Assembly: GCA_951406725.2 (NCBI GenBank)
Contig: OX597833.1
Span: forward strand, 7,254,001-7,318,000
DNA: 64,000 nt
DNA from: Octopus vulgaris
Lineage: Eukaryota
Direction: 5' to 3'
The notes below the pieces were generated by a model that saw only the letters and a list, made by a program, of their open reading frames with translations, made no database searches and had not been told where the DNA came from. The number at the start of each line of letters is the position of its first letter. Positions within the stretch are counted from its first letter, which is position 1. The translations under genes were made by a program, and so were the position numbers. Shown one piece after another: positions 1,036-59,747 of this stretch.

Positions 1036-1291
1036 TATTTGGTTAATGAGAGACGGAAGATGGAAGATACGAGAATGTTTATTAATTACTAGTATCGATC
1101 CCTCAAGGGTAAGATCTCTAAAAACTGATTTAGGAGTATCCGACGGTGTAGATGTGTCTCTTCGGATACTTCTAAGCCAGTTGTTAGGCATTCCACCTGC
1201 GAGGGATCGATGGTAGATCGGTCGAAACAGTTGTAGTGATTAATAAACATTCTGGTATCTTCTATTTTCCGTCTCACTCATTAATCAAATA
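1036..1291. mobile_element. Fold-back element H3 with degenerate hammerhead in right arm
   Basis: Imperfect inverted arms ~1036-1143 and ~1162-1291; cac-CTG(-)CGA-gg-gatcgat ggtag atcggtc-GAAA-CAGTTG-TA-gtg at 1194-1238. Confidence 0.75.
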
Positions 1292-1404
1292 TATAATATA
1301 TGCATTTATATTACTATTACTATTATTATTATTACTATTATTATTATTATTATTATTATTATTATTATTATTATTATTATTATTATTATTATTATTATTA
1401 TTAT

Positions 1405-1605
1405 TGGCAGAAACGTTAGCACACTGGGCGAAATGTGTAGCCGTATTTCGTCTGCCGTTACGTTCTGAGTTCAAATTCCGCCGAGGTCGACTTTGCCTTT
1501 CATCGTTTCGGGGTCGATAAATTAAGTACCAGTTACGCACTGGAGTCGATATCTGTCCTTGTTTGTCCCCTCTGTGTTTGGCCCCTTGGGGGTAGTAAAG
1601 AAATA
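1405..1605 (+). mobile_element. tRNA-derived SINE, family B
   Basis: tggcagaaacgttagc...gagttcaaattcc...ggtcgactttgcctttcatc; (ATT)n upstream and (AAT)n downstream. Confidence 0.9.
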
Positions 1606-1785
1606 ATAATAATAATAATAATAATAATAATAATAATAATAATTATTATTATTATTATTTGCCCTTTTCTCTGATTCACCTGCATACATGCACTCGCACA
1701 TAAATGCTTGTGAGTATACATACATATATATATGTGTGTGTGCTCGCGCTCGTAATGTATGTATCTCCACATACAGACGTAGATA

Positions 1786-2016
1786 TATTTCTTTACTACC
1801 CAAAAGGGGCTAAACATAGAGGGGACAAACAAGGACAGACAAACGGATTAAGTCGATTACATCGACCCCAGTGCATAACTGGTACTTAATTTCTCGACCC
1901 CGAAAGGATGAAAGGCAAAGTCGACCTCGGCGGAATTTGAACCCAGAACGTAGCGGCAGACGAAATACGGCTACACATTTCGCCCGGTGTGCTAACGTTT
2001 CTGCAAGTTCGCCGCC
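1786..2016 (-). mobile_element. SINE family B, full length
   Basis: Reverse complement of the family B copy at 10153-10383. Confidence 0.9.
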
Positions 2017-56600: not shown

Positions 56601-57630
56601 AGGGAAGGAAACGAAATCGGAATCGCAAGATGAGTTACAAATTAATAAAGTAAACAACAGGATCTGATGAAATCGGCGATGATGTTCTGTATCAGTAATT
56701 AGGGAGTATAAACAGTTTAAAAGATGAGCTGATGAAACTAGTAATGATGATATCTATCAGCAATTAGTAAGTTGATATAGTTTAAAAGTGGCAGAAGTCG
56801 GTTTACAGTAAGGAAGAGAAAATGTCTGACGTTTTTATCAATTTCTCACGAAATTATAAAGTTTGGTTTTTGTATAATGCTGTCTGTCATTGTTTAAGGT
56901 TGTGACTTGCTTCGAACTATTGGAAGCTGTTAATACAGATATTGATGTAGATATTGGCAATCTTTCTTCTGATTTATAGTCGATTGTGTTGTCCTATCGA
57001 TAAATATTTAATCTTAACGATGTTTGTAAAAGTTCATCCAATCACTTCTACATCGGAGATTCAATCATTCATTTCACACATTTATTCATGCGCAAGCGCA
57101 CTCACGCATACACACACACACATACATACATACAGACCTTTAAATGTATTTTTGATGATAAGTACAAAATATCTTGTAAATAATATATATATATATATAT
57201 ATATATATATATATATATATATATATATATATATATATATATATATATATATATATATAGGTAGGTATAGTCAGTGTATAACTAACACACCGATACTTTT
57301 TTAGTTTTATCAATAGTTTCATGACAGAATTAATAGCCGTCAATCGTCAGACAATATAATAAAAAATATTTTATGAAGGTACAACAACTATTATCATATA
57401 TATATATATATATATATATATATATATATATATATATATATATATATATATATACACATATAAATAAAACGTAATCACCCACCACCAGAATGTGTAAGAG
57501 TGAAAAATAAAAATAAGATTTTTAAAAAGACTGTAAAGAAAGAGGCTATCATTTTGATGGGGAGAAAACTTTTCTGTTTCTTCATGAAACTGGGTCTTTA
57601 TCTGTTTTCGCCTTCTTGTTCCCTTACCAG

Positions 57631-57699
57631 GTATAAACAGCTTCTCAGACGATAAAAATGAAGCGAAGAGTGCGCACCCTACATCCGGGGTATTTGGTG
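57631..57699 (+). CDS. Candidate exon containing a start codon (ATG 57658; MKRRVRTLHPGYLV, phase 0), product unknown
   Basis: Strong acceptor ttttcgccttcttgttcccttaccag|, aaaaATG context, donor gtg|gtaagg; non-repetitive flanks. Confidence 0.45.
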
Positions 57700-59586
57700 G
57701 TAAGGGCCGACATTTTCAGCGTTCAATCTACCACTGTTCTTCTTGTTCTTGTTGCTACCAGCACACACCGTTATTACTGTTCCGGCTGTTACTGTTATTC
57801 TTGTTGAAATCATGTTTTGCTGTATTCAGTATTAAATTGAATGTTCCATGGTTTTTCAGTAAAAAAACAAAAGCAAAAAAAAAAAAAAAAACGGGAATCA
57901 TTTGGCATCACGTGATCACCATGCGATTTTGGATTTTTGTGGTTGTTTGTTTTAGCACTTTTTGTACAATGAAGCATTTCACCAGTGAGAAGCCAACAAC
58001 GTGAGAATCTGTGACATGTTAAAACTAAATAATCATTAGGATAAACACATTCACATACAGAGCACAGTCAGTACGTGTTACTAATAGCTTCAAAATCACA
58101 CAATTATACAGATGAGTTGAGCTGAGCTCATTGCAATCAGATATGCAATTTCTTTTATAACTGCCTCTCTCAGCAAATGAACGAACTCAACTATTTTAAA
58201 ACCTTTTAACATGAGCTGACGGTGCTCTATACTTGTAGAAATGTAAAAAATAGCTCCACATTCTTTATATAGAATTCTCTTCACTTTGTCATATAAAACT
58301 TACTTGTTCACTATATATATATATAATACTATTTTGTAGTGGGTAGTTCTTATTCCATATGTCTGCTTCTTTGTCCGCTGCTACCTAATACGTGTGCATA
58401 ACAAATGTACGCTGCTTATGCAATACATATACACACACATATATATATATGTGTGTGTGCATAAATATTCATATATACATATATATATATATATATATAT
58501 ATATATATATATATATATATATATGTGTGTGTATAAATATTCATATATATATATATATATATATATATATATATATATATATATATATATATATATATAT
58601 ATATATATATATATATATATATATATATATATTGTGTGTATAAATATATTATATATATATATATATATATATATATATATATATATACAAAGAAAGAAAA
58701 GAGAGAGAGAGAGATTAAATATATGGATAGAAATAATTGTTATTCTGACCCTGTAAATAATAAGCTGTTCTAATATAGATTTAGTGAATCGAAAAATGCA
58801 ATCCTGGGGCTTTTCCCACCTAAACTAAGGCTTATTATTTTTTTGTGTGTCATGGCGTCAGGTTCGTGGCTTCTCGCTGTTGCTTTAAATAATCACAGTT
58901 TCAGAAACAAAAGAAAATGTCTCCAGCAATCATTCACGCTTTTGCTGCTTCCAATGGCTTCTGTGATGTTTTTTTTCTTTTTCTTTTTACTTTTAAAATG
59001 TTATTAATGTTGTTGCTACGCTTTACTGCTATTATTTATTGCATCTTGTTGCAAGCTTTTGCACTCAGCACCATTACCGAAGGATACACACACACATATG
59101 TATGTATGTATGTATGTATGTATGTATGTATGTATGTATGTATGTATATGTGTATGTATGTATGTATGTAAGTACTTATGTGTGTGCGCGCGCGTTAGCT
59201 TGTGTGTGTGTAACGATAAATAAACACACACGCAATGCGTAAATGGATGGATGAATATATGTATGTATGTATGTATGTATGTATATATATATATATATAT
59301 ATATATACATATACACATATACATACATACATATATATATATATACATATATATACACATATACATATATATATATACATATACATACACACACACATAT
59401 ATATATATATATGTGTGTGTGTGTATGTATATAATTAGAGGATATGTTAACCTCGTGAAGAGATGGTTACCTCCAAGGAAATACTGGTTCAATAACTAGT
59501 ATTTTTGGGGAATGAAATTCCCTTAAATCAATAGGTATATTAAGCATATAGTTTCTATACAGTAAAAAAAAGAAGAAAATGAAGAT

Positions 59587-59747
59587 AAGGAAGTTAACAA
59601 TTATTTAGGACTAACAAATTGGTCATCTTCGCTTCTTACAGCTGTTTCAATTAATTCTCAATAATTAAATTATTGAGTAACAATTGAACCAGCTCGAAGA
59701 AGTGAAGATGGCGAATTTATTGATTATAAATAATTGTTAATTTCCTT
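59587..59747. mobile_element. Fold-back H5 retaining only the 3' half of a hammerhead
   Basis: ~80-bp imperfect arms centred on ctcaataatt a aattattgag; GAAA-CAGCTG-TA on minus strand at 59637-59648. Confidence 0.6.

What the first reader, a model, noticed from the sequence alone, without database searches (positions are those of the whole stretch)
1036..59747. Same-polarity fold-back elements built from hammerhead-ribozyme repeats: a candidate snap-back retroelement system
Seen: five inverted duplications of mutually unrelated sequence (1036-1291, 23237-23360, 49944-50018, 51345-51819, 59587-59747) each contain hammerhead motifs or parts of one. Polarity is always the same: left arm on the minus strand, right arm on the plus strand, so ribozyme 5' sides face the loop and 3' sides face outward, usually toward TA-rich microsatellite. 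The fold point lies at different distances from the core (about 100 nt upstream in H2, a few nt in H4 and H6, inside stem II in H5), like variable 5' truncation. Established: Penelope-like elements carry minimal type I hammerheads with palindromic stem III in their pseudo-LTRs and can show inverted terminal segments; metazoan retrozymes are non-autonomous hammerhead repeats. Inference: cDNA primed at a microsatellite folds back at its truncation point and copies itself, giving hairpin insertions. No RT for these elements is visible in the window, so mobilisation would be in trans. I cannot tell whether this is already described for cephalopods.
Basis: partly seen in the sequence, partly recalled or inferred. 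Interest (0 to 1): 0.85.

Follow-up and report, generated by a model that had tools for sequence, protein, structure and literature searches.

The report
Head-to-head Penelope retrotransposon stumps
The five DNA palindromes are mirror-image pairs of the hammerhead-bearing end of Penelope-like jumping genes, a layout already described in other animals, and the extra 'tail' that sits on exactly one arm, long or short, suggests they likely form from two cDNAs joined in the middle rather than one cDNA folding back.

Summary
The five palindromes are real. Each is an insertion of a dispersed repeat family with Penelope-like element (PLE) features: a fixed 3' end in TA repeats, variable 5' truncation, an optional tail, and a hammerhead or part of one. 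The 23237 family lies downstream of an RT + GIY-YIG frame in at least 14 of 20 loci; the other four could not be linked to an ORF. Polarity holds: 34 of 34 pairs not selected for it, and 11 of 11 in 800 kb of random sequence, are head-to-head. This layout, the one-sided tail and a self-priming model are already published (PMC3846280, PMC8557442), and the scan found similar elements in a shark. Not found in print: 42 of 43 intact pairs carry exactly one tail, on the shorter arm in 8 of 16 clearly unequal pairs. Plain snap-back cannot give that. Best mechanism (inferred, about 0.45): twin priming at the two known RT start sites, then end-joining. Snap-back plus hairpin resolution is a close rival. 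Only one of the five has a complete hammerhead. Read support for one junction was inconclusive.

The parts
965..1035 (-). Tail of family F1036, on the left arm only
   Evidence: minus hit to +75; same tail in L115, L120, L134
1036..1163 (-). Left arm, F1036 pLTR 3' end, 5' end about -148 from the element end
1165..1291 (+). Right arm, F1036, from about -127, no tail; GAAA + stem III at 1224
21691..23156 (-). Frameshifted non-LTR RT (RTE-like, label recalled), unrelated to the palindromes; its 5' end abuts and truncates the left arm at 23236
23236..23293 (-). Left arm of F23250 (-143 to -86), cut short by the LINE
23294..23299 (.). 6-nt filler at the junction, matching neither arm
23300..23440 (+). 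Right arm of F23250 (-143 to end), no tail, ends in TA repeat; family is the 3' end of an RT + GIY-YIG element
30330..30473 (.).
48323..48569 (.). Further head-to-head pair; left arm has CTGACGA...GAAA with palindromic stem III on the minus strand; family of about 18 scored copies
49943..50045 (.). Old head-to-head pair, fold a few nt above a decayed core; relatives carry CTGATGA and a 10-nt palindromic stem III; left arm abuts a SINE-like repeat
51265..51344 (-). Tail of family F51345, left arm only
51345..51597 (-). Left (longer) arm of F51345, to -253, including the apparent loop
51596..51823 (+). Right arm of F51345 from -223, with the complete type I hammerhead at 51702-51780
59433..59572 (-). 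Tail of family F59560, left arm only
59573..59751 (.). F59560 head-to-head pair, folded at a natural 11-nt palindrome inside the stem II region (-108 on both arms)
34653..34679 (+). Minimal hammerhead of another abundant family, not in a palindrome (a decayed copy at about 816-842)
55604..55665 (-). Complete type I hammerhead, not in a palindrome, near TA repeats

Best explanation
Each palindrome is two 5'-truncated copies of a Penelope-like retrotransposon's 3' end joined head to head, with a tail on one arm only, likely made in one insertion event in which both cut DNA ends primed a cDNA on the element's RNA. Shown: the geometry, the one-tail rule, TA targets, linkage of one family to an RT + GIY-YIG frame, and a shared source for the two arms. 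Inferred: the element's endonuclease cuts both strands of a TA tract; one end starts reverse transcription at the tail end and the other at the pLTR end (the two start sites reported in vitro); short arms often run off the RNA's 5' end; the two cDNA 3' ends are joined through 1-7 nt of microhomology or a short filler, which would also supply second-strand synthesis. Identity as PLE ends about 0.95; this mechanism about 0.45.
For: Polarity: 34 of 34 pairs from arm-only searches and flanks head-to-head, none tail-to-tail within 60 nt; 11 of 11 hammerhead-bearing hairpins in 800 kb of unselected sequence. Tails: 42 of 43 pairs with both 3' ends intact have exactly one, against 48% expected from the solo rate of 51 of 128 (p about 1e-12). 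The tail is on the shorter arm in 13 of 23 pairs differing by 10 nt or more, 8 of 16 at 30 nt or more, and in young L400 (about 270 against 1348 nt). Four loci carry an inverted tail-only piece at or near the 5' end of a tail-less copy. Arms share 61 non-majority bases against 20 expected (48 pairs). 5' hot spots in two families sit on TTAGT, 30-32 nt below a TATA-like box. ORF link. PMC11167929 (main text read): the PLE protein cuts and extends both strands, is predicted to be a dimer, and has two RT start sites that bound the tail.
Against: Snap-back followed by a nick at the pLTR end on either strand predicts the same tail pattern. Some junctions sit on natural hairpins (59587, L243, L237, L396), as snap-back expects. 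Junction parsing in old copies is noisy: 38 of 52 gave an apparent insert, many caused by divergence. PMC11167929 saw no difference in start site between strands, which does not by itself explain the strict one-tail coupling. Four of five families are not linked to an ORF. The promoter reading rests on motifs and end positions only, and the hot spot was sampled with queries of similar length. The young-family sample is about six junctions, with shifting coordinates in a tandem stretch.
Confidence: 0.5

Rival explanations
1. Snap-back with hairpin resolution: one cDNA primed at the tail folds back, copies itself through the tail and seals a hairpin on the target end; the endonuclease then nicks at the pLTR end on either strand and the hairpin unfolds, leaving one tail on the long or the short arm.
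For: Explains exactly one tail, either arm and shared variants. Junctions on natural hairpins. Microhomology of 2-7 nt in the clean junctions of the young family. PMC8557442 attributes the tail to EN-mediated resolution; PMC3846280 infers self-priming from palindromic junctions.
Against: Many pairs end on both arms at the same hot spot with a filler matching neither arm, or would need 1-2-nt loops (L149, L152, L256, L164). Young pairs have loops over 1 kb with short arms clustered at about 200-270 nt. Tail-only pieces need a nick in an unpaired region.
Confidence: 0.3
2. Plain snap-back, with later one-sided deletions at the palindrome centre scrambling which arm is longer.
For: Arms share a source. 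Long palindromes are known to suffer centre deletions (own knowledge). Tail on the longer arm in 8 of 16.
Against: Needs a secondary deletion in half of all unequal pairs, including a young copy that would have lost over 1 kb from one arm (L400). Tail-less long arms end at the same hot spot as solo copies, which random deletion would not give. It also predicts pairs with no tail; 0 of 43 were seen.
Confidence: 0.1
3. Self-priming on an antisense RNA template from a bidirectional pLTR promoter (the model of PMC3846280).
For: Predicts head-to-head polarity and palindromic junctions.
Against: Later in vitro work shows target-primed internal initiation on sense RNA. The 5' hot spots fit a sense start site. 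It does not address the one-tail rule.
Confidence: 0.07
4. They are MITE-like DNA transposons or assembly fold-back artefacts.
For: 39 of 52 hairpins in the random sample have no hammerhead homolog and at least one family is a fixed two-ended element (L062/L011).
Against: Solo arms outnumber pairs in three of four families, centres differ copy by copy and ends are asymmetric. The two arms differ by 0-20%, with 47 of 48 pairs non-identical. One family continues into a PLE ORF.
Confidence: 0.02

Closest known systems
EN+ Penelope-like element insertions with inverted pLTR and tail (PMC3846280; PMC8557442 Fig. 2 legend; passages read)
   Same: Head-to-head inverted 5'-truncated copy, tail on one end, TATA plus Inr in the pLTR, AT-rich or microsatellite targets, RT + C-terminal GIY-YIG.
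   Different: Most cases here are stumps of 50-300 nt per arm with no ORF, at about one per 70 kb. Tails reach 70-140 nt against 30-40 nt reported. The one-tail rule and its independence from arm length are counted here.
PAc/Poseidon in vitro mechanism (PMC11167929; main text read)
   Same: Two RT start sites bounding the tail, AT-rich cleavage, both strands extended, hammerhead not needed for insertion.
   Different: That paper does not explain inverted products; the pairing of one start site with each DNA end is inferred here.
Minimal type I hammerheads of metazoan PLEs (PMC4209133; passages read)
   Same: Extra nucleotide after CUGANGA, palindromic helix III, high diversity within one genome.
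   Different: Long stem II inserts (up to about 90 nt); two ORF-linked families keep GAAA and the palindromic stem III but lack CUGANGA.
Non-LTR retrozymes (10.64898/2026.07.22.740005; part 1 of 5 read)
   Same: Short non-coding type I hammerhead repeats related to PLE pLTRs.
   Different: Retrozymes are head-to-tail arrays with a ribozyme in each unit; these are solo or head-to-head, and one family is part of a coding element.
LINE-1 twin priming (recalled)
   Same: Both target ends prime on one RNA and the cDNAs are joined by microhomology.
   Different: L1 gives inversion without duplication; here the two arms duplicate the same pLTR sequence.

Membership tests
EN+ Penelope-like elements | RT and C-terminal GIY-YIG in one frame upstream of the 3' repeat | tested here: met
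   F23250 only: at least 14 of 20 loci have PLE ORF hits followed on the same strand by the family end; Pfam RVT_1 and GIY-YIG in L314
EN+ Penelope-like elements | Same ORF link for F1036, F49944, F51345, F59560 | tested here: inconclusive
   Walks of 0.3-0.9 kb upstream ended in low-complexity tracts; nearby ORFs were separate insertions. F49944 was only probed against held loci.
EN+ Penelope-like elements | Type I minimal hammerhead with palindromic helix III in the pLTR | tested here: met
   F51345 (CTGANGA 52 of 52, GAAA 49 of 52 copies) and F1036 (17 of 33, 31 of 37) pass the descriptor; F59560 and F49944 show the motif by eye. F23250 lacks CTGANGA. Cleavage not tested.
EN+ Penelope-like elements | Optional 3' tail, often at one end only | tested here: met
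   51 of 128 solo copies; exactly one arm in 42 of 43 pairs
EN+ Penelope-like elements | 5' truncation with inverted head-to-head copy | tested here: met
EN+ Penelope-like elements | Microsatellite or AT-rich target bias | tested here: met
   TA/CA/TG repeat on at least one flank in 38 of 40 pairs, both in 25; no genomic background computed
EN+ Penelope-like elements | Target-site duplication | tested here: inconclusive
   Flanks are simple repeats; no non-repeat TSD could be called
Neptune/Nematis clades | CX2-5CxxC motif before GIY-YIG and tree position | not tested
   Motif seen by eye in the 781-aa protein; no tree built
Non-LTR retrozymes | Head-to-tail arrays with a complete hammerhead in each unit | tested here: not met
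   Copies are solo or inverted; one direct dimer of F23250, which lacks the core (L343)
MITE / TIR transposons | Fixed terminal inverted repeats around a fixed centre | tested here: not met
   Centres vary per copy, ends are asymmetric, solo arms are common
Rfam hammerhead families | Covariance-model match | tested here: not met
   No hammerhead hit at E up to 10 for 51660-51815 or 34600-34740; none among the 150 of 445 rows shown for the window

The most novel reading that the evidence does not exclude
Penelope-like elements integrate by twin priming: one target end starts at the tail site and the other at the pLTR-end site of the same RNP, and the two cDNAs prime each other for second-strand synthesis. 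This one rule would explain the tail, the inverted pLTR, tail-only inversions and the flood of promoter run-off stumps. The tens of thousands of resulting hairpins could also be a major source of the dsRNA behind octopus hyper-editing.
Probability: 0.4. Interest if true: 0.65.

Novelty: new member of a known kind. Interest (0 to 1): 0.4.

Why it matters
How PLEs make inverted pLTRs and tails is named as an open question in PMC8557442. This genome offers thousands of countable cases and a young family with intact 781-aa frames, so the one-tail rule gives a sharp constraint and a direct test with the existing in vitro system. For annotation, such stumps may be mistaken for MITEs or unknown palindromes. 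If transcribed they would form tight dsRNA; octopus has unusually many near-perfect dsRNA loci and high A-to-I editing (PMC5625713), but this link was not tested.

Tried and rejected
Rfam found no hammerhead; one search was swamped by microsatellite matches to miRNA models. The repeat finder was swamped by TA tracts. Single-motif polarity calls (19 divergent, 9 convergent, 4 both, 43 none) were too noisy and included SINE pairs; replaced by core homology. The 13 'convergent' rows for F59560 came from a palindromic reference copy and vanished with a non-palindromic one. Three 'convergent' rows came from flanking repeats in the library and vanished with cores only. The palindrome at 25971-26031, with inward-facing CTGATGA, is single-copy and has no GAAA half, so it was not counted as a counter-example. 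One tail-to-tail pair of related elements separated by a TA tract (L036) reads as two insertions. The 18 pairs found with a palindromic query were left out of the polarity count. Public contigs from four runs covered both arms of 51345 but no listed piece bridged the junction: inconclusive, as these are short contigs, perhaps from other individuals. A validation search for a sixth family returned nothing. Upstream walks for F51345 and F59560 reached no ORF. One search timed out.

Full report
Observation. A self-comparison of the window finds all five inverted repeats at the stated coordinates. The genome is 2.8 Gb in 227 contigs. It looks like an octopus genome, but that is an impression and no call names it. 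Hammerheads are real and common: a strict type I descriptor gives 12 hits in 80 unselected 10-kb stretches against 0-1 in ten shuffles, and a relaxed one gives 21 against 0-1 in five. Of the five loci only 51345-51819 has a complete ribozyme (51702-51780); the rest hold halves or decayed cores. Rfam does not recognise them. The window has two more such pairs, 48323-48569 and 30369-30473. The RT at 21691-23156 is not PLE-like and cuts the left arm of 23237.

Families. Arm-only searches of the own genome gave 783-1574 candidates for four families and 40 for the 49944 query; 40 were scored each time and 30 fetched. Copies share a fixed 3' end running into TA repeats, variable 5' ends and an optional extension of about 38-140 nt. 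That extension is the PLE tail. In the window it lies outside the left arm only at 1036, 51345, 59587 and 30369. F51345 and F1036 pass the hammerhead descriptor as families; F59560 and F49944 show the motif by eye; F23250 keeps GAAA and a palindromic stem III but no CTGANGA. A GIY-YIG search gave 148 matches among 150 scored, many in 781-aa open frames. That protein has RVT_1 and GIY-YIG. F23250 lies 0.3-1.6 kb downstream of a related frame on the same strand in at least 14 of 20 loci. The other four families could not be linked.

Polarity. One search lists 53 junctions, 52 after merging one segmental duplicate. Eighteen came from a palindromic query and are set aside. In the unselected 800 kb, 52 hairpins passed the filter: 11 carry a hammerhead or F23250 core, all head-to-head; 39 have no such homolog; 2 are centred on simple repeats. 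Six of 21 hammerheads lie in hairpins, which cover 1.5% of bases. One per 70 kb would scale to about 40,000 in the genome (extrapolation). The young coding family shows the same layout with arms up to kilobases and 99% identity (L293).

Mechanism. Nine of the 52 pairs have a broken 3' end. Of the other 43, 42 have a tail on exactly one arm, one on both (partial), none on neither. Solo copies have it in 51 of 128, so independent choice would give about 48%. The tail is on the 5'-shorter arm in 13 of 23 pairs differing by 10 nt or more, and 8 of 16 at 30 nt or more. A copy made by folding back cannot hold sequence that its template lacks, so plain snap-back fails there. Four loci have an inverted tail-only piece at or near the 5' end of a tail-less copy. 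The arms share 61 non-majority bases against 20 expected over 48 pairs, so they come from one source, yet they differ by up to 20%, which argues against an assembly artefact. Arms abut directly, mostly within 12 nt, with short overlaps or fillers. The clean junctions of the young family overlap by 2-7 nt. Base-level parsing of old junctions was noisy. 5' ends pile up near -143 in F23250 and -220 in F59560, on TTAGT 30-32 nt below a TATA-like box, which reads as run-off at the RNA's 5' end (inferred). I favour twin priming at the two RT start sites followed by joining of the two cDNA ends (about 0.45). Snap-back with a sealed hairpin nicked on either strand predicts the same tail pattern (about 0.3) and fits junctions on natural hairpins such as 59587 and L396. 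Sequence alone cannot separate the two. Public contigs did not bridge the one junction tested.

What is known. PMC3846280 (passages) describes inverted pLTRs, an optional tail on one of them, TATA plus Inr, palindromic head-to-head junctions and a self-priming model. PMC8557442 (passages) draws the same layout, notes microsatellite bias and calls its origin unresolved. PMC11167929 (parts 1-2 of 4) shows both-strand cleavage and extension and two RT start sites bounding the tail. PMC4209133 (passages) defines the minimal hammerheads. The retrozyme preprint (part 1 of 5) ties retrozymes to pLTRs. PMC8969392 (passages) repeats the layout. Two cephalopod repeat papers list Penelope as abundant but never use 'hammerhead' or 'palindrom' in the main text (passages). 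PMC5625713 (passages) reports high dsRNA and editing in octopus and heavy editing of Penelope in a lizard. Searches for Penelope with twin priming (one unrelated review), snapback (none) and self-priming (only PMC3846280), found no statement of the one-tail rule. Arkhipova 2006, Pyatkov 2004 and Evgen'ev 1997 were not seen, nor were any supplements, and they may bear on this.

Verdict. The added value is a quantitative constraint on an open mechanism. Interest 0.4.

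Noticed in passing
L291:1430-6665, L293, L391-L420: Young, probably active PLE family: 781-aa RT + GIY-YIG frame preceded by a second open frame of 359 aa with no convincing Pfam match; the 40 best hits to its 3' end are 100% identical.
   Followed up: partly
L293:6740-6880; F23250 (window 23300-23345): Two ORF-linked families keep GAAA and the palindromic stem III but lack CUGANGA; the young family also keeps stems I and II with AAATGAA in place of the core, suggesting a non-catalytic role for the fold.
   Followed up: partly
L234, L242, L248, L378: TATA-like box 30-32 nt above a TTAGT motif at the 5' truncation hot spots of two unrelated families; a likely pLTR promoter.
   Followed up: partly
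L343:2394-2715: Head-to-tail dimer of the F23250 end with 186-nt spacing, about one stump plus tail; retrozyme-like.
   Followed up: no
L298:6278-7284: The 3' UTR of the F23250-linked element is built of about 280-nt tandem units holding CA tracts, variable in number between copies.
   Followed up: no
L067:1892-2280, L087:9710-9845, L092:5861-5969, L109:571-684: A frequent hairpin family with a looped stem III hammerhead: five head-to-head copies in 800 kb, each with a different centre; one (L067:2155-2280) seems to lack a tail.
   Followed up: partly
window 25728-25907, 59961-60171, 7019-7280: Further palindromes with no relatives among the loci held; 59961-60171 is nested (two pairs of arms).
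   Followed up: partly
L062:7662-7884, L011:2278-2605: Fixed two-ended palindromic family without hammerhead; MITE-like.
   Followed up: partly
window 1407-2004, 49620-49940: Abundant SINE-like repeat (label recalled) in inverted and direct pairs; explains several chance inverted repeats.
   Followed up: no
L018, L019, L020, L027: Four loci 97-99% identical over 2.5-3.2 kb on two contigs; segmental duplicates of one insertion.
   Followed up: no
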